Made by a program: the position numbers and the translations under genes. From Terriglobia bacterium (GTDB lineage Bacteria; Acidobacteriota; Terriglobia; 20CM-2-55-15): 64,000 bases of DNA. The DNA lies in assembly GCA_963664115.2 (NCBI GenBank), contig CAXWPJ010000012.1:416001-480000 (forward strand), in the 5' to 3' direction. The notes beneath the pieces are model-generated. The model was not told where the DNA came from and searched no databases. It saw only the letters and a list, made by a program, of their open reading frames with translations. Within the stretch, counting starts at the first letter, position 1, and every line of letters starts with the position of its first letter. Shown piece by piece: positions 7,330 to 54,166 of this stretch.

Positions 7330-8463
7330 TCAGGGAATCGGCAGCAGAGGTCTCTGCCCTTCGGGCAAGTGCTGATCGAAGGCCGTCAACAGGACTGCAT
7401 CGCCTGAATGCTGCGCCATCAGATCGATGAAGTCAACCAGGTCTCTCTCTCCAAAAATCTCGAGGGCCCGGGCATAGGTTTCAGGGCTTACGCTGTGCAT
7501 TTGGAAAAGCTCACGACCGAATTCGATGAGAACGGCTTCTCTCTCACCCAGTGCTGTTACCGGCCCGCGATGGCGCACCTGGTCAATGATAGCCGGCTCC
7601 AAGCCGTCCCGGAGGGCTCGAAGCTCGTTCATCGTCCACTGATATTGAGCGTTGTGTTCGCGAGCGGTAACGAGAATCGCCAAGTCCACCAAGCCGCGCC
7701 CAACACTTGCCTCCAGAGAATCGAGACCCGCCCCATGAAGCCGGATGTGTCCCGGTCCCGTGCCCGCGGGGGCCATCGTGCGGCTGTAGAGAGTGGGCGC
7801 CGGGGCCGGGCCGTCTTCCAGACCTTGCTCCTGGACCTGTCGTAGCGGAAGACGGCTTCTTGAGTCCGGATGAATGTCATCGGGCAGAGCAAAAGGAAGG
7901 GGCAGAAATTGCTTCCATCCCGGAGGCATCTGTTGATTGACGGCGGTCAATCGCGTGCCCGTCGCTGTGTAGTTACCGATCAAGTCAACAATATCGACGA
8001 GACCGTTCGTGCCGAGGATATTCAAAGCACGCGCATAGGTTTCCGAGCTCAGTTGGAACGTTCCGAAGATCTCACGACCCAATTCAATGATGATCGATTC
8101 CTTCTCACCGAGTCCTGTCAGCGGCATGCGATAACGCACACGGTCGATCACTGTTGGATCCAATCCCACGGCAAGGGCTTCCATCTCGTGTAACGACCAC
8201 TCGTATGGCTGGTCGTGCTCGCGGGCCGAAACCAGGATCGCCAGTTCCGTCAAGGCGCGGCCGAGTGGGGATTCCCAACGGACGATGACTCCGGACCCAT
8301 GTTGCCGTATCGCGGCAACAGCGTCGGACGAGCCGGGTGTGTCGCGGACTGGAAGCCGGCTGCCCGAAGCCGGAAAGACGTCTCTGGGAAGAGGCAGTTG
8401 TGCACGTGCCGACAGTCCCAGAATGATCAGGACCCAAAGCACAGCGGACAGTCGATGGAGCAT
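7330..8463 (-). CDS. Exported protein with tandem carboxymuconolactone-decarboxylase/AhpD-like domains
   Basis: Internal duplication: ELAILVSAREHDQPYEW / DLAILVTAREHNAQYQW, and ETYARAL twice. Confidence 0.75.
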   Translation of the reverse strand: MLHRLSAVLWVLIILGLSARAQLPLPRDVFPASGSRLPVRDTPGSSDAVAAIRQHGSGVIVRWESPLGRALTELAILVSAREHDQPYEWSLHEMEALAVGLDPTVIDRVRYRMPLTGLGEKESIIIELGREIFGTFQLSSETYARALNILGTNGLVDIVDLIGNYTATGTRLTAVNQQMPPGWKQFLPLPFALPDDIHPDSRSRLPLRQVQEQGLEDGPAPAPTLYSRTMAPAGTGPGHIRLHGAGLDSLEASVGRGLVDLAILVTAREHNAQYQWTMNELRALRDGLEPAIIDQVRHRGPVTALGEREAVLIEFGRELFQMHSVSPETYARALEIFGERDLVDFIDLMAQHSGDAVLLTAFDQHLPEGQRPLLPIP

Positions 8464-37551: not shown

Positions 37552-39400
37552 TCCCAAAACAAGCGCATAACCAGTCCGCCGAGGCCCAGTTCGCGCCGAT
37601 AGAATTCGAGGCATAGAATCCCGTTCCCGGATGGCCTGTTCCAGGTATCGAGTTTCTGTTGAATCTGTTTCAGTTCAGCCTCGCTGGTGTTGGACGGTTG
37701 ACAGAAACCGGGACCTCGATCGCCCGGGCTCAGAGTCATGATCGGGTCAACATCGCAGAGGCTGACGCAACACATCCACCCCGCGGAACAAGACCGGCAA
37801 CCACCGGTTCCAGGCCAGGATCCGGAACAGAATGCGCCGCCCGGTGCGCACGAGTTGGCACGGCACAAGCATGAAAGCGTTCAAGAAGGTTTTGAACTCC
37901 ATGCGCAGCACGGTTTGCTTCTCAGCCTGATATTTTTGGCCCCAACGTCCGGTTTCGGGAAGCAGCAATGCAAACCACGCTTTCAGTGTCCAGGCCAGTG
38001 ACGCGATCACCATGTAGGCCCAGTTGCTGGTCTGATCTCCGACCGGCATCCGCAACGCCTGAACGCCGTTCTTCAACTGCTCAATGAGATTCTCCTGATT
38101 GCACCGTTGATTGGCACGCATCACAATCTGGTCGGCCGGATCCGAACGGTTGGTAATGTAGAAGAAGTACCGGATGTCGTCAAACAACACCTGCTCTCCT
38201 TTGGCCACCGACAGATTCTTCCGCACCACGACGACACGGTAGTCCCGATCGCAGGCTCCGGGTCGATACCGAAACTCGGCCACATCCTCACCCTGCAAGC
38301 GGATATTGTCGAAACCGCGCTGCCGAACGATCTCTTCCTTCACGTTGTCGGGACGTTGGCGCGGTTCGGTCGCCACGTCGTATTTCGCGGGCCGTTCCAG
38401 GCGCTTCCACTGGCGCGGCTCCAGTTCATCGGCCCGGGCCTTCAGGTTCGCCATCGCGTCAATCCCGAATATGAAACCCACCTGCTGGTCGTCCCATCCG
38501 TCCAGATGCCGGGTCTGGCTGAAGTCCGTGTCCCCGCGCAGCAGGATCTGGCGAAACCCCGCATGCCGGCACAATGCGATGGCTTGGTCGAACCGGACCG
38601 CGGCTCCTTCATGCGACGGCCGGTTGCCGCTACGATTGACCAGATACAGCGGTTCGGCGGTGTTGGCCAGCGAGATCATCAGCGGGTGATATCCCCACGT
38701 CCCGTCGTAGGCCACGTCCATCCCTTGCTTGCATTCCCCCGTGGTTTCGGCCAGTGTCCCGTCCGCGTCCAACACCGCTTCTTCGAAAAACGCCGCCGGT
38801 TGCTGTCGCCAGACTCCGAGCCGGACTTGATTGGTTGCCTCCATCAGACACTCCACGTCGTCGGCCTCGAATCTCCGGCAGAAGTCTCCCGCCGTCGTCG
38901 GATCCGGAATCCGTTGCGCTCCCAGCGCATCCAGATACACCGCATCGTTGCGCCGCAGTTCGATGTCTTCCAGGCACGTTCCTCCGCTCAAGGCGTTGTA
39001 GGCGATGTTCAGCACGTGATCCGACTCGTGATACGGCAGGTGCCGCTTCAACACATGCACGCCCTTGTCGATGGCTTCGATCAGCCCGGTCCGCCGCGCC
39101 ACCAGTTGCATCGTCCCGATACCACCAACCGATGTGCCCCGCGTCCGCTCTCCCATCTCGTACTGAATGTTGCTCGCCGAAAACATCGGCTCTACCTGAT
39201 CCGTCCAATGCCGGTCCCCAAGCCGACGTTCGATTCGCCGCTTGCGGTTCCTCATGTTCTTGCGCGTATAATCGTTCATCTGAAATGCCTCCTTTTCCGA
39301 AGAATCTGTTCAAGGTTTTTTTCGCACGGAGAGGGGGCATTTCGGGTACTTCCGCTCTTATTGCACTATCATTTCCTCGTCAATCACGCTTGTTCAGGGA
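37552..39400 (-). mobile_element. IS1380-family insertion sequence
   Basis: Imperfect terminal inverted repeats TCCCAAAACAAGCG / CGCTTGTTCAGGGA, flanked by CTAG (within ACTAGT) on both sides. Confidence 0.85.
37747..39279 (-). CDS. IS1380-family DDE transposase
   Basis: LPYHESDHVL, PDPTTAGDFCRRF, LDADGT, LRGDTDF and ENLIEQLK motifs. Confidence 0.9.
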   Translation of the reverse strand: MNDYTRKNMRNRKRRIERRLGDRHWTDQVEPMFSASNIQYEMGERTRGTSVGGIGTMQLVARRTGLIEAIDKGVHVLKRHLPYHESDHVLNIAYNALSGGTCLEDIELRRNDAVYLDALGAQRIPDPTTAGDFCRRFEADDVECLMEATNQVRLGVWRQQPAAFFEEAVLDADGTLAETTGECKQGMDVAYDGTWGYHPLMISLANTAEPLYLVNRSGNRPSHEGAAVRFDQAIALCRHAGFRQILLRGDTDFSQTRHLDGWDDQQVGFIFGIDAMANLKARADELEPRQWKRLERPAKYDVATEPRQRPDNVKEEIVRQRGFDNIRLQGEDVAEFRYRPGACDRDYRVVVVRKNLSVAKGEQVLFDDIRYFFYITNRSDPADQIVMRANQRCNQENLIEQLKNGVQALRMPVGDQTSNWAYMVIASLAWTLKAWFALLLPETGRWGQKYQAEKQTVLRMEFKTFLNAFMLVPCQLVRTGRRILFRILAWNRWLPVLFRGVDVLRQPLRC

Positions 39401-40474: not shown

Positions 40475-41221
40475 CTAACGCGGCAAGATTTCAGGAGGCA
40501 GGTTGGTCTCCGGCAAAGCGTTTCCCCGGTGGCAGGTCCAGCAGGACAGCACACCGACCCTCCCCAGGTACTCGCTTTCCAAGCCCTCTTGAATTTCGAA
40601 CATCCGGCGCGAAAGCAACTTCATCAACTTGGCATCGTCGGCCCAGTCACCCTGAACATGACAATAGTCACAGCCCACGCCCAGGTCGCGGCTATAAGCT
40701 TCCATGATCTGGCGAAGCCCATTGGCCGGGACATCCCTGTAGTTTCGAATGTCGCCATAGACTTCCCCCGATAAACGACTCTCGCTTGAAAACTGCGCCC
40801 CGCCTACCGCCGGGATGACTGGAAGGGGCCCAATCGCGGGTTCAGTTTCTGGTGTCGGCGAACCCCGATGGCAAGTCCAGCAGCTCGGCGCTTCCAGTAC
40901 CTCGAAATAGCTCTCGCTTGCGCCCACGACCATACGGATCATTTCCCGGGCAACTCCCTTCAGGGGATTGGCGTCCGAAGCCCGGTCAACCGGGTCGTGA
41001 CAGTATTCGCACCCGACGCCGAGAGAGACACTCATGGCCTCCATGATCTGTTGCAATTGCTCGGGTGGGGCATCCATGAGGATCTGAACGTTCTGATACC
41101 CCGACTCCCCAAGGATCGGTCCCTGCTGCCCGAAGCTTGCTCGAGGACCCTCGGCGACAACCAGGACCACGGAAAAAGCAATGACAACAGCTGTGGGCCA
41201 GAAGAGCTTTCTTAATTGCAT
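40475..41221 (-). CDS. Tetraheme c-type cytochrome, reaction-centre cytochrome (PufC-like) family
   Basis: CEYCH, CWTCH, CDYCH and CWTCH in two repeated diheme units with Met-rich helices. Confidence 0.85.
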   Translation of the reverse strand: MQLRKLFWPTAVVIAFSVVLVVAEGPRASFGQQGPILGESGYQNVQILMDAPPEQLQQIMEAMSVSLGVGCEYCHDPVDRASDANPLKGVAREMIRMVVGASESYFEVLEAPSCWTCHRGSPTPETEPAIGPLPVIPAVGGAQFSSESRLSGEVYGDIRNYRDVPANGLRQIMEAYSRDLGVGCDYCHVQGDWADDAKLMKLLSRRMFEIQEGLESEYLGRVGVLSCWTCHRGNALPETNLPPEILPR

Positions 41222-42103: not shown

Positions 42104-42636
42104 TGTTTCTCATCTCCAATCTGTACCCATGCATCGAACAGATGCCGCAACTGCGCAGTGCCGGGTTCACCAGAAACAGCTCAGCTCAGGGGGAAACTAT
42201 ACTGCAAGACGAACCCCGATTCCGCCGCTTTTCCGGCCGGAACCGCACGCGGACAAATAAGAGATAGACGCCTCCGTCGGATGTCGCCCACCTCGGTGAT
42301 CACAGGTAGCGACTTCGGGACAGCGCACTCCCAAATATCATGATCCCGAACAGAGATGAAATAATTCCAAACACGAATTAAGAATCGACACGCGCCCCAC
42401 TATCGCCGTCGCTGGTATGTTTCTGCCATGACCCGCATGACGGGTCCTCGGGCATCGAGATACTTTCTGCGTGTTTGAGCAGGATACTCATCAAGCTTGA
42501 CACTTCAACTTGACCGCAAACGACAGTTACAGAGCCTTCCCTTTCTTCATTAACAGTCGGAGAGTTTTAACTTATGCATTCCCTAAGAATGCACTATGAT
42601 TCATTCGAGACCGGGTGGATTTGGAGGGAATGCATC

Positions 42637-42876
42637 GTGAAGCGCTTTGGGCCGGGCATCGCAACTCTGGCAGGCATCGCCTTTCTGGTAGTCAGTTGGG
42701 AACAGCCTGCCTACGCCTATCTTGATCCGGGAGCCGGCAGTCTCCTTCTCCAGGTTTTGATGGGAGGCCTGGCCGGGGCTGCCGTTGTCGTCAAAGTTTA
42801 TTGGAACAGCCTGATGGCGAGATTTGGACGCGGCGACGACACCAGGAGAGCCGATCCGGGTGAATCTGACACCTAG
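42637..42876 (+). CDS. Small membrane protein with a YLDPG motif
   Basis: AYA|YLDPGAGSLLLQ followed by a TM segment; GTG start. Confidence 0.7.
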   Translation: MKRFGPGIATLAGIAFLVVSWEQPAYAYLDPGAGSLLLQVLMGGLAGAAVVVKVYWNSLMARFGRGDDTRRADPGESDT

Positions 42877-44281
42877 ATTGGAATCCGCGCGAATAGAAGG
42901 CTCCTTCCGAGATCCCGCGGGACAGATCTTCCAAAAAGACGGCCATATTTACCGAACCATCAACGCCATTGCCGTCGATGACTTTGTCTTCGTTCAGAAC
43001 ACCAACTTCTACCCGAAAGCCGTCAGCGAAAAGCGTCTTATCTCTGCTGAACAAGTTCCGCCCGAAATCCTGAGCAGCCGGAAAGCAGAGGCCTCCTATG
43101 TGATCGAACACCCACGCCTGCCTTTCGTGTCCTATCCCTATGAGTGGACGTTCCAAATGCTCAAAACTGCCGCGCTGTTCCACCTCAACTTCCATCTTGA
43201 CGCTCTGAGAGACGGCATAACGCTGATTGATGCCTCGGCATATAACGTGCAGTTCATAGGTGCATCGCCGATCTTCATCGACACGCTGTCCTTGCGGAGA
43301 TATAAACCCGGATCGCTGTGGGCTGGTTACAAACAATTCTGCGACCAGTTTCTCAATCCCCTTCTCCTGAGATCCTACGTTGGACTGCACCATAACGCCT
43401 GGTATCGGGGAAACCAGGAAGGCATAAACGCCAGCGAGATCCGGAAATTACTGCCCGCCCGTCGTAAGCTATCTCGGAGGGTTTTCACACACGTCACGCT
43501 CCAGGATTCGCTTCAGAAGACCGCGCGTAAAGGTTCCGGCCCGAATCTTGGAGCGTTGCAGGAAATAGGACTCCCACTGGCAACGTTCAGAAAAACGCTC
43601 ACTGACCTGCGGGATTGGATTATGGGACTCGAAGCGAAAAAGACCGAACGCAGCGTATGGAGCGACTACGCAAAATCGAACAGCTATGCGCTACAAGAAG
43701 AAATCTTCAAGCACGACTTCGTAGACGACTTCGTCCGCCGCAGAAAACTCTCACAGGTCTGGGACCTTGGCTGCAATAGTGGCGAATACGCAGCAGTTGC
43801 GCTCAAAGCCGGAGCAGACTATGTCGTCGGGTTCGATGCGGACCACGGCGCGTTGGATTTGGCTTTTCGCCGCGCGCAAGAGGAAGGTTTACGTTTTCTT
43901 CCTCTTTATCTGGACATCGCAAATCCTCCGCCCTCTCAGGGATGGGCGCAACAGGAACGGTATGGACTTAGGGAACGCGCCAGTGCGGACGGCTTGATTG
44001 CCCTGGCACTGATCCATCACATATCGATCGGAGGGAACGTACCTCTTGGCGATGCGGTTGCCTGGTTGGTCGGCCTGGGACCCAGAGGCGTAATCGAATT
44101 CGTGCCCAAAGAGGATCCCATGGTCCAGGAGTTACTTCGGTTCCGGGAGGATATATTTCCGAATTACACACTCGAAAACTTTCTTGGAGAGCTTCGAAAA
44201 CATGCGTCCGTCGATCGGACGGAACCGAGTTCATCGACCGGGCGTTTACTGGTGGAGTTTTCGCGCAAACCACAAGCCTGA
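42860..44281 (+). CDS. Class I SAM-dependent methyltransferase, NoeA-like
   Basis: SFRDPAG, SYPYEW, DASAYNVQF, WDLGCNSG, LALIHH and IEFVPKED motifs. Confidence 0.85.
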   Translation: MNLTPRLESARIEGSFRDPAGQIFQKDGHIYRTINAIAVDDFVFVQNTNFYPKAVSEKRLISAEQVPPEILSSRKAEASYVIEHPRLPFVSYPYEWTFQMLKTAALFHLNFHLDALRDGITLIDASAYNVQFIGASPIFIDTLSLRRYKPGSLWAGYKQFCDQFLNPLLLRSYVGLHHNAWYRGNQEGINASEIRKLLPARRKLSRRVFTHVTLQDSLQKTARKGSGPNLGALQEIGLPLATFRKTLTDLRDWIMGLEAKKTERSVWSDYAKSNSYALQEEIFKHDFVDDFVRRRKLSQVWDLGCNSGEYAAVALKAGADYVVGFDADHGALDLAFRRAQEEGLRFLPLYLDIANPPPSQGWAQQERYGLRERASADGLIALALIHHISIGGNVPLGDAVAWLVGLGPRGVIEFVPKEDPMVQELLRFREDIFPNYTLENFLGELRKHASVDRTEPSSSTGRLLVEFSRKPQA

Positions 44282-44420
44282 ACGATAAGCGAGATGGACC
44301 CGCTCTGTAATTCGCCCAGTGCTCCCCCAACGGCTTTTCAAGAGACCTAGAGTCTACATAACATGACTCACGGCTTTTCAAATCATAACGTTTATCACTG
44401 GCAGCCTGCACGTTCTTGTT

Positions 44421-46931
44421 TTGTTTAGTATCGCCCTAGCCCAACCTTTGTTCAGCTTGCTTTCCCGCTATGCTGAGTTCTTTGTGGCAAGACAGACCGA
44501 GCCGGTGGATTTGATCCTTCTGACTCTGATCGTCTGCCTGGGCCTTCCATTACTCCTGATCCTTCTTGAAGGACTCGCGGGTGCCATGGGGACTGGATTC
44601 TACAAGTATGCACACATGGGCTTGGTTACCGTCCTGGTGGCTACTATCATCCTTCAATTACTCAAGAAAATTCCGGGAGTACCCGGAATCGCGTTAGTGA
44701 TCGCGGCAGTCCTGTCAGCCATTATGTATTCGCTGGCTTATGTTCGTTTTGATCTCGTTCGGACATACTTGACGTTTCTCTCTCCGGTCATCCTCTTGTT
44801 TCCCGGCTTATTTCTTTTCAATTCCGAAATCTCAAAAATCGTTTTTCCCGAACAGGTCCAGCTTCAGCTGGGCAACGTCGAGGCTGAGACTCCGGTGGTG
44901 ATGGTGGTTTTGGATGAATTGCCGCTGACTTCCTTGATGGATGAACAACGTCAGATCGATCCAATTCGATTCCCAAATTTTTCCCGTTTGGCCAGCGAAT
45001 CTCATTGGTTCCGGAACGCGACAACGGTCAGTGATTCCACGCTCTTGTCGGTGCCGGCGATTGTGAGCGGTCTGTCACCAAAATTGCAGGAACCGCGAAT
45101 ACCGACGACAGCGGATTATCCTGACACCCTCTTCACCCTCTTGGGTGGATCCTATCGTCTCGAGATATTCGAGAACGTCACTCAACTTTCTCCCGCTTCA
45201 AGCGCTACAGTCGAACAGGCGGTCGCACAACGGATGCGCAGTCTGCTGACCGACCTGACCATCGTGTATGGCCACATGCTGCTTCCAATTGATCTGGCTT
45301 CAGGCTTACCTCCGGTCAACCAATCTTGGAATAACTTCAGATTGACTACACCGGAATCCGCAGAAATTCAGGGTGGTACTAGTGATTTTCAGACGCTTGT
45401 TGACTTTCTAACCGACGAAGACGACCGTGCCGGTAAGTTCCGAGAATTTATCGACTCGATTCAGGTCAGTGCGCAACCCACGCTATTTTTCTTGCACTCC
45501 ATGCTGCCCCACTCGCCCTGGCAGTATCTACCGAGCGGAAGACAATATTCACTGACACCGTCATCCATTCCGGGTATGACGACATCTTTCGTCGATAGCG
45601 AAGGAAACTTGCCCACGTGGGGAAACGACGCGTCACTGGTGAACCAGGGCTACCAGCGCCATCTTCTTCAGGTTGCTTTTCTGGACACGCTGGTGGGAGA
45701 CCTTATTGACAAATTGGAAGAAGTCGGCCTGTACGACCGATCCCTCATCGTCGTCACTGCCGATCATGGTACGAGCTTCCGAACAAACGATTTGTGGAGG
45801 CGGGCAAGTGAGACCAACCATCCCGACATAATGTGGATTCCTCTGTTCCTCAAGGCGCCGTACCAAGAAGAGGGCGTCGTGAACGATCGCAATGTCGAAA
45901 CCATCGATATCCTCCCAACGGTAGCCGATGCTCTGGGAATCGAAGTGCCATGGGAAACGGACGGCCGTTCGGCATTCGATCAAACCGTACCAGAACGGTC
46001 AGCGAAAACGATTCTTGCTGGCAGGACACAGGAAATTGTGGCCAATCCAAACTTGAATTCACACGATGAAAGCCTCAAAAGAAAGCTTGAGCTCTTCGGT
46101 TCGGGAGCCTGGGACTCCTTCTTCGCCAGTGGCCCGTATGGTCATCTGTTAGGAGAACGGGTAAACCAGATCGGGGTTGGCGAGACGGACATCGGCGTGG
46201 AACTTGACGGGGAGGCATTTTTCGCGAACGTCAATTTTGATTCTACATTTTTACTCACTCATATTACCGGACACATTCTGGCTGGCCCCAGGAGATATCC
46301 CTCGGGCCATCTGGCCATTGCCGTAAACGACACGGTGCAGTCGGTGACTGAGCTCGCCGGTTCCGGAGACTTCTCGGCCTTGGTTGCAGAAAGCGCGTTC
46401 ATGCCGGGACAAAACGACGTGGAAGCTTTTTTAGTGGTAGATGCCGGCGGAGGAACGCGTCTTGAACATCTCTCTAAAACCTCCCGCCCCTACTATTCCA
46501 TAGTCCCCTCAAGGGAGGAGCAGACAGAATCTCTACAGAGATCGGATGGTGAACGCGTCCCGATTGTTCCGGGGGACGCTCTTGGATATTCAAGGGCCAA
46601 AATTAACGAAGAAACTGGAACGGTCTCCATCACGGGCTGGGCAGCGAGCGTTGAACAACCCCAATTGGGCGTGACGATTCTGATCTTTCGAAACCAAGAT
46701 CTTGTGCACACCGGAACTCCTCGCATCTCTCGGCGCGACGTCACAGCAGTCTATCCGGAATGGGACGCGCTGACACCCGGGTTTAGTTTCGAGTTGCCGC
46801 TCGACAGTTTTGGAAATCTGGACCAGACCGAGGTTCGCGTGTTCGCGCTGACGTCACAGGGTCCTGTTTCGGAATTGGGCTATATCAGAGACACTTGGGA
46901 CTTCGCTATCCGTTCACCAACGACCGACTGA
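44421..46931 (+). CDS. Membrane-anchored sulfatase-like hydrolase/transferase
   Basis: N-terminal TM segments; LDE, T nucleophile (DSTLLS), PHSPW and TADHG. True start probably further upstream. Confidence 0.8.
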   Translation: MFSIALAQPLFSLLSRYAEFFVARQTEPVDLILLTLIVCLGLPLLLILLEGLAGAMGTGFYKYAHMGLVTVLVATIILQLLKKIPGVPGIALVIAAVLSAIMYSLAYVRFDLVRTYLTFLSPVILLFPGLFLFNSEISKIVFPEQVQLQLGNVEAETPVVMVVLDELPLTSLMDEQRQIDPIRFPNFSRLASESHWFRNATTVSDSTLLSVPAIVSGLSPKLQEPRIPTTADYPDTLFTLLGGSYRLEIFENVTQLSPASSATVEQAVAQRMRSLLTDLTIVYGHMLLPIDLASGLPPVNQSWNNFRLTTPESAEIQGGTSDFQTLVDFLTDEDDRAGKFREFIDSIQVSAQPTLFFLHSMLPHSPWQYLPSGRQYSLTPSSIPGMTTSFVDSEGNLPTWGNDASLVNQGYQRHLLQVAFLDTLVGDLIDKLEEVGLYDRSLIVVTADHGTSFRTNDLWRRASETNHPDIMWIPLFLKAPYQEEGVVNDRNVETIDILPTVADALGIEVPWETDGRSAFDQTVPERSAKTILAGRTQEIVANPNLNSHDESLKRKLELFGSGAWDSFFASGPYGHLLGERVNQIGVGETDIGVELDGEAFFANVNFDSTFLLTHITGHILAGPRRYPSGHLAIAVNDTVQSVTELAGSGDFSALVAESAFMPGQNDVEAFLVVDAGGGTRLEHLSKTSRPYYSIVPSREEQTESLQRSDGERVPIVPGDALGYSRAKINEETGTVSITGWAASVEQPQLGVTILIFRNQDLVHTGTPRISRRDVTAVYPEWDALTPGFSFELPLDSFGNLDQTEVRVFALTSQGPVSELGYIRDTWDFAIRSPTTD

Positions 46932-47030
46932 CCACGCGATTCCACGACCTATCTGCTCGCTCGAGACGTAATAGGTGGGATCGGAGAGCGATCTCTGAAA
47001 TTTGGTCTCCGTCGCCCAAATAATCTTGAT

Positions 47031-47375
47031 TCAGCTGAACACGCGGCGATAGGTAGCTTCGTCGAATCCGACGATCAATGTCCTTCCCTTTCGAAGCGCA
47101 GGGGCTCGAAGCTTCCCGTTGCGGCACACGGCCTTCAGGAGTTCTTCTGACCCGGGCTTCTGTTTTTTGAGATCGAAAAAGACAACCTTCTTACCGACAC
47201 AGGCATAGATTTTGTCGACCTGGTTCATCAGGTCCAGGACTTCCACTTCGGGAACTGCCACTTTGCGGGCGTTCACTTCTACTTTGATTGCAACATCGTT
47301 CTGCGCAAGAAACTCCTGCGTCCGCCCGCAGGTCTTTCAAGCGGGCCGATGGTAACTCCAGTCCACTCGTGCCAT
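47031..47375 (-). CDS. ArsC/Spx-like thioredoxin-fold selenoprotein (UxxC)
   Basis: ATG 47375 with AGGAG RBS. MARVDWSYHRPA-TGA-KTCGRTQEFL... continues in frame into ORF 47031-47276 (GKLRAP). TGA at 47339-47337. Confidence 0.8.
47303..47336 (-). promoter_or_regulatory. Candidate bacterial SECIS element
   Basis: After the UGA, two alternative hairpins: CCUGCG-GGCGGA-CGCAGG or CGCAGG-AGUUU-CUUGCG. Confidence 0.55.
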
Positions 47376-47386
47376 CGTTGCTACTC

Positions 47387-48709
47387 CTATATGTTTGGGG
47401 CGAAACCGTCGCGCGGCAGTTCGATCATGCCGCAGGCAAGCGTGTCGTGATTGGACGGATCGATCAGGATGAACGCGCCGGTTTCCCGGTTGCTTCGATA
47501 TGCGTCGCAGACCAGGTCTTGGTAGGTTTTTATCTGGACACGACCAATGGCGTTTTTTTCGAAGGGGCGCTCGCCCGAGTCGGTCGTCAGAGTATTGACG
47601 TCAATCAGGTGATCAATATTGGAAACCACGGCCTTGGTCGTCCGGCAGTTGTGCTTGAGCAAATACTTCGCCCCTTTCTTCAAGGGAGTGTCTGACATCC
47701 AGCACACGGTCGCGGCAAACTCAGAAGTGATTTTGGGATCGTCACCATGCCCTACAATCAAATCCCCACGTGATATATCGATATCGTCTTCCAGAGTCAC
47801 CGTTGCAGATCGAGGCGCCTCCACACTGTCGAACTCGCCATCGAAGCTGACAATACTCTGGACTTTGCTCGTCAACCCTGAAGGCAGAACCTGGATCGTG
47901 TCTCCAACCGCAATGCGCCCCGATACCAGACGCCCCATATACCCCCTGAAATCGGGCAGATCTTTCGTCTGCGGGCGGGATATCATCTGGACTGGAAAGC
48001 GGAGGCCTGACGTGGACACATCCGTTGCGGGTTCGACAGACTCGAGCAACTCGAGCAAGGTCTGGGACCTATACCAGGGCATCCGATCTCCACGGACCGC
48101 AACCATATCGCCATGGACCGCAGACATCGGGACATACCAGGTATTGTGTGCACGTGCATGACGCACACCCAGCCGTTCGAAGAAGTCAACAAACTGCTCT
48201 CGAACCTCCGAGTAAACGGACTCGGAATAGTCCACAAGATCCATTTTGTTGATGGCTATAACGAAATCGGTGATTCCAAGCAGGTGAGCGATACAAATAT
48301 GACGACGTGACTGGGTCACCATGCCGTTTCTCGCGTCCACAAGAATCAATGCCAACTCTGCAGTACTCGCACCGGTAACCATGTTGCGTGTGTACTGTTC
48401 GTGCCCCGGAGTGTCGGCAATAATGAACCGTCGTTTCGGCGTGGCAAAGTAACGATATGCTACATCGATGGTAATACCTTGCTCCCGCTCCGCCCGCAGC
48501 CCGTCGGTCAGCAGCGCCAGATCAATGCCCCGCCCACCCCGCTGTTCGTTATAGTCACGGGCCGCCGCAATCTGATCTTCGAACGCGCCCTTCGTGTCCA
48601 CCAGAAGACGGCCGATCAACGTCGACTTACCATCATCCACACTACCGGCCGTGGTCAGCCGCAGCAGTTTGGCTTGATCGATACCCACAGGAGTCACCGT
48701 AGTGTTCAA
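47387..48709 (-). CDS. cysN: Sulfate adenylyltransferase subunit 1
   Basis: [29 protein letters not shown] and [12 protein letters not shown]; no CysC fusion. Confidence 0.95.
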
Positions 48710-49614
48710 AAATAGCCTTCCTTCTTTTTGTCTTCCATCGTGTTCGAGCCGTGGTCGATCACGCGGGTCTCGCGCTCGCTTCGGATAGCCGCGTCCGCTT
48801 CGATGGCGATCTCATCCAGCGTTGTGGCCTCGGAGGCCACGGCCCCCGTGCAGGGAGCACAACCGAGCGTCCGAAATCGGACACACATCGTCGTCGGCTC
48901 TTCACCGTCCTTAAGATTCCCAACGTCATCCGCTGGAATGAGGTTGACGCCTCGACGCACCACCGCCCGTTCCTTGGCGAAATACAGCGGCACGATAGGG
49001 ATGTCTTCTCTTTGGATGTAGTGCCAGATGTCGGATTCTGTCCAGTTCGAAAGGGGAAACACGCGCATGCTCTCTCCCTCGAAAACACGGGTATTGAACA
49101 GATGCCACAACTCCGGACGCTGATTTTTGGGATCCCATTGACCAAAGGAATCCCGAAACGAAAACACACGCTCCTTCGCCCGCGAACGTTCTTCATCACG
49201 CCGGGCACCGCCGATTGCTGCATCAAAGTCATGCTGTTCCAGGGCTTCCAGCAGCGCAGCCGTCTTTAGCTGTCCGCAGCATCGCGCCACACCCAGTTTC
49301 AGGGGGTGGGCCCCGGCTGCTATCGCCTCTTCGTTGCGGTGCACGATCAAACGGGCTCCAATCTCAACAGCAAAACGATCGCGAAACGCTATCATCTCCT
49401 TGAACTTGTAGCCCGTATCGATGTGGAGCAGGGGAAACGGTATCGGCGCGGGATAAAACGCTTTCCGGGCAAGGTGAACGAGAACGCTGGAATCCTTGCC
49501 GATCGAATACAGGATGACAGGCTTCCTGAATTCCGCAGCGACCTCACGGAGGATGAAGATGGCCTCGTCTTCAAGAACGTCAAGGTGGTTCAAATGCGCT
49601 TTCACATTCAACAT
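48706..49614 (-). CDS. cysD: Sulfate adenylyltransferase subunit 2
   Basis: [35 protein letters not shown] and KKKEGYF. Confidence 0.95.
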
Positions 49615-50328
49615 TTAAGATGATTTGGCCGTGTGCAGGCCGCACTCCTTGGAATCGGCGCTCTCCCACCACCAGCGACCGGAACGGATATCCTCCGCGG
49701 GTTTGATCGCGCGCGTGCATGGAGCACAGCCGATGCTGGGATAACCTGCATCATGGAGAATGTTGTATGGGACCTTGTTCTCGTGGATATACGTCCAAAC
49801 CTCATCCACACTCCATTCCAAAAGAGGATTGAACTTGTACAGGCCCTGGGCGTCGTCCCAAACCCTGACATCGAGGTTTTCACGGGTGGGCGACTGATCC
49901 CGCCTCAGGCCCGTTACCCAGGACTTTTTCCCATCCAACGCCCGACCCAAAGGCTCCACCTTCCGAATGTGGCAGCACTCACGCCGCTGTGCGACGCTCT
50001 GATAGAACGCGTCCGGACCGTTCCCCTCGACATAGGTTTGCAAAACAGTAGTTTCGGGGCAATACACACGTACAGGAACAGGGTAACGGTCCCGCACCTT
50101 GGATATCAGGCGATAGGTCTCTTCCGGAAGCCTGCCTGTGTCGAGCGTGAACACTTCTATCTCTCGCGCATGACTGGCAATCAGGTCGAGAAGCACCATG
50201 TCTTCGGCGCCGAAACTGGACGCAAACGCGGCAGGAGATGACGACGCGACAATCTCTCCGAGAACGGCCACGACATCTGCCGTCCGCTGAGACATCACGT
50301 CTTCGGAAACACCTGGATTTATCATCAT
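49615..50328 (-). CDS. cysH: APS reductase ([4Fe-4S]-type CysH)
   Basis: ECCHIRK, SIGCAPCT, GRWWWE and ECGLH. Confidence 0.93.
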   Translation of the reverse strand: MMINPGVSEDVMSQRTADVVAVLGEIVASSSPAAFASSFGAEDMVLLDLIASHAREIEVFTLDTGRLPEETYRLISKVRDRYPVPVRVYCPETTVLQTYVEGNGPDAFYQSVAQRRECCHIRKVEPLGRALDGKKSWVTGLRRDQSPTRENLDVRVWDDAQGLYKFNPLLEWSVDEVWTYIHENKVPYNILHDAGYPSIGCAPCTRAIKPAEDIRSGRWWWESADSKECGLHTAKSS

Positions 50329-50329
50329 G

Positions 50330-51100
50330 TCAGAAAATGCACATCAAACCGGCAGCCACAAGGACCGTGGCCAACGCGGCTCGCAATACCGGTTCCGGAA
50401 CACGCCCCGTTAATGAGCTGCCCAGATAGATTCCAGGGAGTGAACCGATCAGCAACGCTCCCAGGAGTCCGAAATCGACCGTCCCCAGGGTCCAGTGTCC
50501 GGCGCCAGCGATCAGTGCCAGCGGTAAGGCGTGCGCCAGATTCGTACCGACGATCCGCTTAGCCTCCATCGAGGGCCGGCCGATCATGAGCACCGCAACT
50601 CCAAGTGCGCCCGCTCCGACAGAGGACAGCGTTACAAGGCACCCCAGGAGCGCCCCTGAAAAAACTATCCAGCCGGGCCCGATCAGACCCGCTCGCCCGG
50701 CTGATCGCGCGGCAATTGCCGCGATGCGACCGCGCAAAGCTACAACCAGCGCAGTCAGCAACAGGGCGCCCCCAAGAACCGGCAGGACTGCTGCGTTCAA
50801 GCCATCGAGCGACGAAAGACGGTTCAAAATAACAATTGAGATCATCGTCGCAGGGATACTTCCGTATGCCAGAAGGCGCATGGCAGGCCAGTCGATGTTT
50901 CCCGCTACTCGATGCGCGTAAACCCCGATCGATTTCGTAAGGCCAGCAAAGATCAGATCCGTGCCGACGGCGACGACAGGGGTGACCCCGAGTCCGAATA
51001 TCAAGGCAGGCGTCATGAGCGCTCCGCCACCCACACCGGTCATCCCCACAATAACGCCGACCCCGAATCCGGCAAGCGGTAGTAGAATATTGAATTCCAA
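50330..51100 (-). CDS. TauE/SafE-family sulfite exporter/permease
   Basis: GMTGVGGGALMTP, AVGTDL and IVGTNLAHA. Confidence 0.9.
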   Translation of the reverse strand: MEFNILLPLAGFGVGVIVGMTGVGGGALMTPALIFGLGVTPVVAVGTDLIFAGLTKSIGVYAHRVAGNIDWPAMRLLAYGSIPATMISIVILNRLSSLDGLNAAVLPVLGGALLLTALVVALRGRIAAIAARSAGRAGLIGPGWIVFSGALLGCLVTLSSVGAGALGVAVLMIGRPSMEAKRIVGTNLAHALPLALIAGAGHWTLGTVDFGLLGALLIGSLPGIYLGSSLTGRVPEPVLRAALATVLVAAGLMCIF

Positions 51101-53578: not shown

Positions 53579-54166
53579 ATGGAACTGCAAAGAATTAACG
53601 TCAAACTGTTCACCGACGCCGGCGGGAAAATTGCACTCGACCCCTTCCTGGATATTTTTTCGCGCTGGCGGGAAGACAGCGCTCACCCCAGCCGGTGGGT
53701 CGACCTGGCCGACTATGCACACGTAGCCAAGGGGCCGGGCGTGATGATGATAGGCAAACAAGGAAATCTCGGCCTCGATCTGGCCGATCCGGGCCCGGGC
53801 ATCCTATACGCCAACAAGCAGGACCTAGAAGGGACGACGGAGGATCGCCTGGTGGAAACTTTCAGACGTTGCCTGGCCCTGACCGGGGCACTCATTAAGG
53901 AACCGGAATATCCCCGGGATCTCAAGCCCCGGCCTGGATTCTGGGAACTGTCTTTCAACGACAGACTGGAAACACCCAATACGGATGAGACCGATCGCCA
54001 GCTCCGACCCGCGATAGAGGCCACCATTCGAAGACTGTTCGGCTCGGATCACACACTGATTCGCGAAGCCGATCCGAAACGCCGCTACGGCTTCGTCATT
54101 CACGCGGAAAGCATCCCCACTCTGGAAACAATTGCTCCGAGACTCCAGGTCGATTCTCTCCGCTGA
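53579..54166 (+). CDS. Hypothetical protein
   Basis: 195-aa ORF 8 bp after the sulfite reductase; DLADYAHVAKGPGVM motif. Confidence 0.75.
   Translation: MELQRINVKLFTDAGGKIALDPFLDIFSRWREDSAHPSRWVDLADYAHVAKGPGVMMIGKQGNLGLDLADPGPGILYANKQDLEGTTEDRLVETFRRCLALTGALIKEPEYPRDLKPRPGFWELSFNDRLETPNTDETDRQLRPAIEATIRRLFGSDHTLIREADPKRRYGFVIHAESIPTLETIAPRLQVDSLR

What the first reader, a model, noticed from the sequence alone, without database searches (positions are those of the whole stretch)
47031..47375. Hidden selenoprotein at the end of the cysH-cysD-cysN operon
Seen: the ORF track shows only the 3' part. A proper RBS and ATG 11 bp after the cysN stop give a 114-aa protein with an in-frame UGA at the first position of a redox motif (U-K-T-C), followed by SECIS-like hairpins. 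Known: ArsC/Spx-like proteins have an N-terminal CxxC and Sec variants exist; APS reductase needs a thioredoxin/glutaredoxin-type donor. Inference: a Sec-dependent redoxin serving or regulating assimilatory sulfate reduction, linking Se and S metabolism.
Basis: partly seen in the sequence, partly recalled or inferred. Interest (0 to 1): 0.7.

Follow-up and report, generated by a model that had tools for sequence, protein, structure and literature searches.

The report
Known ArsC-like selenoprotein beside cysN
A small gene after the sulfate-assimilation operon has an in-frame UGA that is very likely read as selenocysteine, but it belongs to an already catalogued selenoprotein family and is probably only a recent neighbour of the sulfate genes, not their electron donor.

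Summary
A 114-aa ORF (47375-47031) starts 11 nt after the cysN stop and has TGA at codon 13 in U-K-T-C. The genome has selA, selB, selD and tRNA-Sec. The protein passes NCBIfam NF041106 (ArsC family (seleno)protein; 114.7 bits, cut-off 85), a family described since 2008. Full-length homologs mostly have Cys there (24 of 28). A SECIS-type hairpin 17-33 nt after the UGA is intact in 70 of 70 TGA loci and 0 of 9 Cys loci, and it covaries. The link to sulfate reduction is not supported. Only 2 of 10 close orthologs lie beside cysN. Four of the 10 genomes have no CysH/CysD domain at all. The same cys cluster lacks the gene in 6 of 8 genomes. None of 80 wider loci has cysN or cysH nearby. The family's recurrent neighbour is instead a TIGR01777 oxidoreductase (24 of 80 loci), often with photolyase or RudS genes. 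Best reading: a Sec/Cys redoxin of the ArsC/Spx fold, likely for thiol-redox stress repair, that recently landed after cysN. Verdict: new member of a known family, low interest.

The parts
47031..47375 (-). Selenoprotein gene, 114 aa, NF041106 ArsC_rel_Se_1 family
   Evidence: (114.7 bits, cut-off 85)
47337..47339 (-). In-frame TGA, codon 13, predicted Sec (first position of UxxC)
   Evidence: Cys in 24 of 28 full-length homologs; 70 TGA, 9 TGC of 79
47328..47330 (-). Cys16, predicted resolving cysteine
   Evidence: Cys in 64 of 64 homologs that cover the site
47304..47320 (-). Bacterial SECIS-type hairpin: 7-bp stem (nt 20-26 with 30-36, U of UGA = 1), GUU loop with G at nt 27
   Evidence: consensus model in PMC13188914
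47100..47102 (-). Pro92 of the invariant L-R-A-P loop (thioredoxin-fold cis-Pro position; cis geometry inferred)
47384..47388 (-). Shine-Dalgarno-like AGGAG overlapping the cysN stop codon
47387..48709 (-). cysN, sulfate adenylyltransferase large subunit (neighbour)
   Evidence: TIGR02034 524 bits, cut-off 336
48706..49614 (-). cysD (neighbour)
   Evidence: TIGR02039 447 bits, cut-off 397
49615..50328 (-). cysH, thioredoxin-dependent APS reductase type (neighbour)
   Evidence: TIGR02055 258 bits, cut-off 235
50330..51100 (-). TauE/SafE family gene, first gene of the operon (neighbour)

Best explanation
The gene encodes a 114-aa member of the curated NF041106 ArsC-related family whose UGA is very likely recoded to selenocysteine, and it likely acts as a general thiol-disulfide redoxin rather than as the dedicated electron donor of the neighbouring APS reductase. 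Shown here: the ORF, the Sec machinery, family membership, the Cys/TGA correspondence and a hairpin that is conserved only in TGA forms. Inferred from the known SelB pathway: SelB binds the G-U-U loop 23 nt downstream and inserts Sec13. Inferred from the fold: Sec13, at the start of helix 1, attacks a disulfide or oxidised thiol; Cys16 resolves it to a selenenyl-sulfide beside the Pro92 loop; the cell's Trx/TrxB system re-reduces it. Inferred from gene context: the family's usual job is in oxidative or light-stress repair modules (TIGR01777 oxidoreductase, class II photolyase, RudS). In this clade the gene moves between loci. Its place after cysN is a recent arrival shared with one congener. 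It is likely co-transcribed here, without being needed for sulfate reduction.
For: Family score over cut-off. selA, selB 383.6 bits, selD itself carrying a TGA, tRNA-Sec 71.6 bits. All 10 genomes with an over-cut-off hit have selA. The 5-bp SECIS core is intact in 70 of 70 TGA loci and 0 of 9 Cys loci; the Leu codon in the stem is CTT in 70 of 70, against 57 of 791 Leu codons further along the same genes. Stem 93.1% paired with 30 two-sided changes, 0 of 500 shuffles. AF2 model pLDDT 88.8; best matches Spx, YffB, ArsC-like, then Grx/NrdH. Four ortholog-bearing genomes (two single-contig, 96% complete) have no PF01507 domain, while the control G001 has three. Eight other close orthologs sit in unrelated contexts. 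TIGR01777 lies within 6 kb in 24 of 80 loci, always on the same strand and adjacent in 20, in several phyla and in both Sec and Cys forms; photolyase in 8, RudS-like in 10. RudS genes are reported in light-responsive operons (PMC11417400).
Against: No biochemistry for the family was found in the papers searched, so redoxin activity, substrate and reductant are all inferred. The stress-module link is absent from this protein's own clade: 0 of 8 rows in a 100%-supported branch. This genome has its TIGR01777 homolog on another contig and no photolyase or RudS hit at E 1e-10. 56 of 80 loci lack TIGR01777 (some are short contigs). Kin share neighbours: the tree needs 8 changes, of which only 2 are forced by strong branches. 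The 11-nt spacing with an RBS overlapping the cysN stop does look like operon coupling. The SECIS stem alone folds at -7.1 kcal/mol (-8.2 with flanks) against the model's -7.5, and competes with a more stable local hairpin.
Confidence: 0.68

Rival explanations
1. Lineage-specific recruitment: in this species and its congener G002 the selenoprotein has become the reductant or redox regulator of CysH, making sulfate assimilation responsive to selenium.
For: 11-nt gap and RBS overlapping the cysN stop. Same order in G002. CysH is of the thioredoxin-dependent APS-reductase type. The fold resembles Grx/NrdH.
Against: The spacer in G002 is about 211 nt, not 11. The cluster stands without the gene in G001, G003, G004, G006, G016 and G022, four of which keep the gene elsewhere. 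Orthologs persist without CysH/CysD. 0 of 80 wider loci have cysN or cysH; 1 has a divergent cysD separated by an unrelated gene. 0 of 17 phylum-wide loci have a cys gene within 1.5 kb. Two canonical Trx and TrxB are present.
Confidence: 0.1
2. Spx/MgsR-like redox-sensing transcription regulator that binds the RNA polymerase alpha C-terminal domain, with a Sec switch in place of the CxxC.
For: Spx is the best sequence and Foldseek match (E 1e-4, TM 0.56). The CxxC position is shared.
Against: Far below the cut-offs for TIGR01617 (23.4 of 75) and Spx PRK01655 (16.7 of 123). In the alignment, Spx G52, required for alpha-CTD binding (PMC2801614), falls in a gap; R60 aligns to Val and R92 to Ala (weak alignment, E 0.03). 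VIA-align ranks YffB, ArsC-like and Spx as tied (Z 8.0-8.6, rmsd 3.2-4.8 A, 87-96 aligned).
Confidence: 0.1
3. Glutaredoxin-coupled arsenate reductase.
For: Family name; Pfam ArsC match just below cut-off (23.6 of 24); H-X3-C spacing kept (H9, U13).
Against: The last Arg of HX3CX3R (PMC3169414) is Gly17. The residue before the Pro is Ala in 120 of 120 homologs, where E. coli ArsC has Arg107 (that equivalence is recalled). No ars gene was among the 18 recurrent-neighbour representatives scanned.
Confidence: 0.06
4. The TGA is a nonsense mutation or real stop, and the gene is a pseudogene or an 81-aa protein.
For: Databases hold many 5'-truncated versions (92 of 120 listed homologs start after the site).
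Against: The TGA is at the same catalytic codon across many phyla. The hairpin is specific to TGA forms. The Sec machinery is complete.
Confidence: 0.02

Closest known systems
NCBIfam NF041106 ArsC_rel_Se_1, 'ArsC family (seleno)protein' = 'Arsenate reductase-like protein', UxxC; 'Arsenate reductase 2' (cd03032) of the GOS survey
   Same: Over the curated cut-off across the whole profile (1-107 of 107), UxxC, one Sec, Cys homologs. The tie to the GOS name rests on the review's citation.
   Different: Nothing at family level. It sits in a long-branch Terriglobia clade with an extra Cys84 (C-R-N before the LRAP loop) and lies next to cysN in 2 genomes only.
Spx / MgsR (B. subtilis-type; TIGR01617, PRK01655)
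   Same: ArsC/Spx fold, N-terminal CxxC position, about 20% identity.
   Different: Below cut-offs; G52, R60 and R92 not kept in the alignment; Sec in place of Cys10.
E. coli-type ArsC and YffB (PF03960)
   Same: Fold (Z 8.6 to YffB 1rw1, rmsd 4.8 A over 93 residues); H-X3-C spacing.
   Different: Dithiol-type UxxC, not CxxS/CxxT; lacks the motif's last Arg and the Arg before the Pro.
Thioredoxin/glutaredoxin/NrdH donors of CysH
   Same: Trx-like core with a redox motif at the helix-1 N-terminus (NrdH Z 7.4, rmsd 2.7 A over 74 residues).
   Different: Has the ArsC-type insertion; not conserved with cysH; the genome has separate canonical thioredoxins.

Membership tests
NF041106 ArsC family (seleno)protein | HMM score at or above the curated cut-off of 85 bits | tested here: met
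   114.7 bits; 107 bits read from the genome with the TGA in place
NF041106 ArsC family (seleno)protein | N-terminal UxxC/CxxC motif | tested here: met
   U13-K-T-C16; Cys at both sites in 24 of 28 full-length homologs
Bacterial selenoprotein gene | selA, selB, selC, selD in the genome | tested here: met
   all over cut-off
Bacterial selenoprotein gene | [quoted passage not shown] | tested here: met
   GUU loop 23 nt after the UGA, 7-bp stem; TGA-specific conservation and covariation (model)
Bacterial selenoprotein gene | bSECIS energy at or below -7.5 kcal/mol | tested here: inconclusive
   -7.1 for nt 20-36 and -8.2 for nt 17-40; depends on the stretch folded
Bacterial selenoprotein gene | Se actually incorporated | not testable with these tools
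   needs 75Se labelling or MS
Spx/MgsR regulator | TIGR01617 / PRK01655 cut-off | tested here: not met
   23.4 of 75.05 and 16.7 of 123 bits
Spx/MgsR regulator | G52 loop, R60 and R92 | tested here: inconclusive
   gap, Val and Ala in a weak alignment; A91 invariant in 120 of 120; roles from PMC2801614
Grx-coupled arsenate reductase ArsC | HX3CX3R motif | tested here: not met
   H9-X3-U13-X3-G17; motif from PMC3169414
Grx-coupled arsenate reductase ArsC | Arg60/Arg94/Arg107 triad | tested here: inconclusive
   no direct alignment to E. coli ArsC was obtained; the pre-Pro residue is Ala; equivalence to Arg107 recalled
Dedicated CysH reductant (conserved cys-operon member) | Conserved linkage and co-occurrence with cysH/cysD/cysN | tested here: not met
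   2 of 10 adjacent; 4 of 10 genomes lack PF01507; 2 of 8 cys clusters carry it; 0 of 80 wider loci near cysN or cysH
Dedicated CysH reductant (conserved cys-operon member) | Supports APS reduction in vitro | not testable with these tools
   needs an enzyme assay

The most novel reading that the evidence does not exclude
In this lineage a mobile Sec redoxin has just been wired into the cysH-cysD-cysN transcript (spacer about 211 nt in the congener, 11 nt here) and now reduces or redox-gates APS reductase, so sulfate assimilation becomes selenium-dependent: operon capture caught in progress. A second, family-level lead is that NF041106 proteins are the redox partner of the uncharacterised TIGR01777 oxidoreductase in photolyase/RudS light-stress modules.
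Probability: 0.1. Interest if true: 0.6.

Novelty: new member of a known kind. Interest (0 to 1): 0.22.

Why it matters
For annotation: the gene is a real 114-aa selenoprotein that standard callers truncate (92 of 120 listed homologs start after the Sec site). For biology: the proposed Se-S link would be notable, but the comparative evidence is against it. The more useful by-product is a testable functional clue for an uncharacterised selenoprotein family: same-strand linkage to TIGR01777, photolyase and RudS in several phyla. I did not find this link in the papers searched, but Haft and Tolstoy 2025 on selenoprotein neighbourhoods was not available to check.

Tried and rejected
(1) Plus-strand reading of the coordinates: no meaningful protein. 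(2) The minimum-energy hairpin at nt 8-25 as the SECIS: rejected. Its loop is only 10 nt from the UGA, one pair is broken in 34 of 70 sequences, and two-sided changes are at chance level (321 of 500 shuffles). It did reach 85.7% paired (8 of 500), so it is not excluded as a competing structure. (3) Co-transcription from public RNA runs: four metatranscriptome contig sets gave sparse, low-depth pieces. One piece crosses the cysN stop but reaches only 15 nt into the gene, so it does not count as bridging, and DNA carry-over is possible; no conclusion. (4) Promoter and terminator scans: counts at chance level here (4 vs 2.4; 5 vs 4.3) and no promoter-like site in the G002 spacer. (5) REP/attC idea for the 18-mer flanking the gene in G002: it is not a genome-wide repeat (exact copies: 2 in G002, 1 here, 0 in three congeners). 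(6) A genome-wide scan with a SECIS-like pattern found selD and this gene among 13 hits; the other 11 did not look like genes and were not followed up. (7) No complex prediction with CysH was obtained, so binding is untested. (8) The careful tree did not finish; the quick tree on 114 columns is poorly resolved. The pre-Pro count in that script used a faulty pattern and was dropped in favour. (9) Earlier findings of this scan: none returned. (10) Rows left out: L118 was not parsed (TGA, U-x-x-Y); L174 (G062, unpublished) was left out; L172, L173 and L177 were not in alignment A3; near-duplicate TGA rows were thinned from 70 to 55 for A3; L038-L040 gave no tblastn hit.

Full report
Observation. 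Read on the minus strand, 47375-47031 is a 114-codon ORF with one internal TGA at codon 13, in H-R-P-A-U-K-T-C. The cysN stop is at 47389-47387, followed by 11 nt and the ATG; an AGGAG overlaps that stop. The ORF list holds only the 81-aa 3' part. Upstream on the same strand are tauE, cysH (TIGR02055, thioredoxin-dependent APS-reductase type), cysD and cysN; a nitrite/sulfite-reductase-family gene is divergent. A same-genus genome is titled Terriglobia (G001 = L072, matched by contig and coordinates), so the organism is an acidobacterium.

Sec machinery. The genome (97% complete) has tRNA-Sec (71.6 bits, cut-off 47), SelA, SelB (383.6 bits, cut-off 242) and SelD, itself with one TGA.

Family. 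The protein scores 114.7 bits against NCBIfam NF041106 'ArsC family (seleno)protein', cut-off 85. It is far below the Spx models and just under Pfam ArsC. The 2026 review PMC13188914 lists NF041106 as 'Arsenate reductase-like protein', UxxC, predicted with high confidence, citing the 2008 GOS survey (passages read). That survey's table has 'Arsenate reductase 2', UxxC, with 42 selenoproteins and 238 Cys homologs (passages). PMC9312934 and PMC1794560 also list ArsC-like selenoproteins (passages). The accession occurs in one paper of the library. Of the best 120 of 144 database homologs, 28 cover the site: 24 have Cys and 4 have Trp (likely TGA read with another code; inference). The other 92 start downstream of it. 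All 64 that cover position 16 have Cys. In 80 GTDB loci (the best 80 of 193), 79 were parsed: 70 TGA and 9 TGC; the 80th has TGA with U-x-x-Y. In a phylum sample, 19 of 201 genomes matched, each with one TGA.

SECIS. Folding this sequence alone favours a hairpin at nt 8-25 with weak z-scores (-2.0, -1.8), which the comparison does not support. The conserved element is nt 20-36. Its 5-bp core pairs in 70 of 70 TGA loci and 0 of 9 Cys loci, including two Cys homologs that encode the same TQEFL peptide. G27 is present in 70 of 70 against 2 of 9. The Leu codon in the stem is CTT in 70 of 70, against 57 of 791 Leu codons further along the same genes. On 70 distinct TGA sequences (this gene, 55, 14) RNAalifold picks the same stem. 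It is 93.1% paired with 30 two-sided changes, 0 of 500 shuffles reach that, and slid controls are lower. Caveats: the sequences are related, 18 of the 30 changes are one pair that also changes Glu to Gly, and the most divergent members break or shift the stem. The loop begins 23 nt after the UGA with G, within the published bSECIS model. This genome's selD has a similar hairpin.

Structure. The AlphaFold2 model (92-row alignment) has pLDDT 88.8, with U13 at the start of helix 14-25. Foldseek's best hits are Spx (E 1e-4, TM 0.56). VIA-align ties YffB, an ArsC-related protein and Spx (Z 8.0-8.6), followed by NrdH/Grx (7.4-7.6); these are middling scores. Residues that define the relatives are not kept. 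Spx G52 falls in a gap, R60 aligns to Val and R92 to Ala (roles from passages of PMC2801614). The ArsC motif HX3CX3R ends in Gly (passages of PMC3169414). L-R-A-P is invariant in 120 of 120. What remains is a UxxC plus Pro-loop redox core.

Is it part of sulfate assimilation? Among 41 genomes (own plus 40 relatives), 10 have an over-cut-off hit, and all 10 have selA. Only this genome and G002 have it after cysN, and in G002 the spacer is about 211 nt. The other eight lie near PadR/MacB and maf-selB (3), BREX and MATE genes (2), resolvases (1), a Rieske-TPP enzyme gene (1) and an aminotransferase (1). The whole cluster (amidase, 195-aa ORF, sulfite reductase, tauE, cysH, cysD, cysN) is present in G001, G003, G004, G006, G016 and G022 without the gene after cysN. 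That makes 2 of 8 such clusters. G007, G017, G021 and G023 carry orthologs 71-76% identical with TGA and SECIS, yet have no cysD match and no PF01507 domain, while control G001 has three. Two of the four are single-contig and 96% complete. Of 80 wider loci (up to 6 kb each side, some short), none has cysN or cysH: two weak cysN hits are in G023 and G017, whose neighbour is SelB. One has a divergent cysD beyond an unrelated gene. None of 17 phylum loci has a cys gene within 1.5 kb. The genome has two thioredoxins over cut-off and TrxB. That CysH normally uses Trx/Grx rests on the TIGR02055 name and my own knowledge; the review passages read (PMC9774590) did not state it. A search for selenoproteins with cysN/cysD returned four papers, none relevant by listing.

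What the family is linked to. Clustering of neighbouring ORFs found one dominant partner, a TIGR01777 (YfcH-type) oxidoreductase. It is present in 24 of 80 loci, always on the same strand: adjacent upstream in 16, adjacent downstream in 4, and 1.5-1.7 kb upstream with a photolyase between in 4. A class II photolyase-like gene occurs in 8 loci and a TudS-DUF1722 (RudS-like) gene in 10. The link spans Planctomycetota, Methylomirabilota, Actinomycetota, Acidobacteriota, KSB1 and others, in Sec and Cys forms; the quick tree needs 8 changes, at least 2 forced. RudS genes are reported in light-responsive operons with photolyases (passages of PMC11417400). This protein's own clade (8 rows) lacks the link. 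The genome's TIGR01777 homolog is on another contig, with no photolyase or RudS hit, so the clue describes the family rather than this locus. Searches for TIGR01777 with photolyase found no paper (none among the 20 listed). Haft and Tolstoy 2025 was not held, and no supplements were read; either could already note this.

Mechanism and verdict. Shown: ORF, machinery, family, TGA/Cys pairing, TGA-specific hairpin, unstable neighbourhood. Inferred: SelB-mediated Sec insertion; Sec13/Cys16 redox cycling with Trx/TrxB; a role in thiol-redox or light-stress repair; recent arrival after cysN with probable co-transcription (RNA data were inconclusive). Which of the 11-nt and 211-nt spacers is older cannot be told from two genomes. 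The finding is a correct rescue of a mis-annotated gene of a known selenoprotein family; the proposed selenium-sulfur link is left at about 10%.

Noticed in passing
window 53579-54166 (+): A 195-aa ORF with no Pfam or NCBIfam match stays behind the sulfite-reductase gene in all 8 full cys clusters examined, at 60-88% identity. It is a much better candidate for an unknown sulfate-assimilation component than the selenoprotein.
   Followed up: partly
L079-L147 (24 loci), e.g. L082:4352-5743, L097:4506-6014, L139:8101-9291: NF041106 genes are repeatedly linked to TIGR01777, a class II photolyase-like gene, RudS-like TudS-DUF1722 and a flavin amine-oxidase/HpnE-like gene.
   Followed up: partly
window 47332-47315 (-): A hairpin at nt 8-25 after the UGA overlaps the SECIS 5' arm and is the more stable fold here. 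It is 85.7% paired across homologs but does not covary. It could compete with the SECIS.
   Followed up: partly
window 46990-47007 (-); L036:7930-7950 and 8370-8390: An 18-nt motif inside an imperfect hairpin follows the gene here. In G002 it occurs both before and after the gene and is not a genome-wide repeat. It may be a trace of the rearrangement that placed the gene.
   Followed up: partly
protein residues 59 and 84 (window about 47201 and 47126, -): Two extra cysteines. Cys84 (C-R/P-N before the LRAP loop) is shared by the close Terriglobia orthologs, where most other members have G-P-T/S; it is a possible second resolving Cys.
   Followed up: no
L029-L031 (G007, G017, G023): In this genus the selenoprotein gene lies 1.4-6 kb upstream of selB, with a maf gene just before selB in the two loci where it was annotated.
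   Followed up: no
L041:2962-3273 (G028): A distant homolog (28% identity, below cut-off) has TGA at the same site and a similar hairpin shifted by one base relative to the codon frame.
   Followed up: no
L118:6037: Variant with TGA and the SECIS but Tyr in place of the second Cys (U-x-x-Y).
   Followed up: no
window 40475-41221 (-): PufC-like c-type cytochrome of the non-photosynthetic type (NF033196, 122 bits, cut-off 70).
   Followed up: no
window 42574-46931 (+): Small membrane ORF, methyltransferase-like protein and a membrane sulfatase-family protein converge on the operon. The last two are also downstream in G002, with about 2.5 kb extra in between.
   Followed up: no
window 37747-39279 (-): 510-aa ORF that looks like a transposase by eye (recalled resemblance, not scanned).
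   Followed up: no
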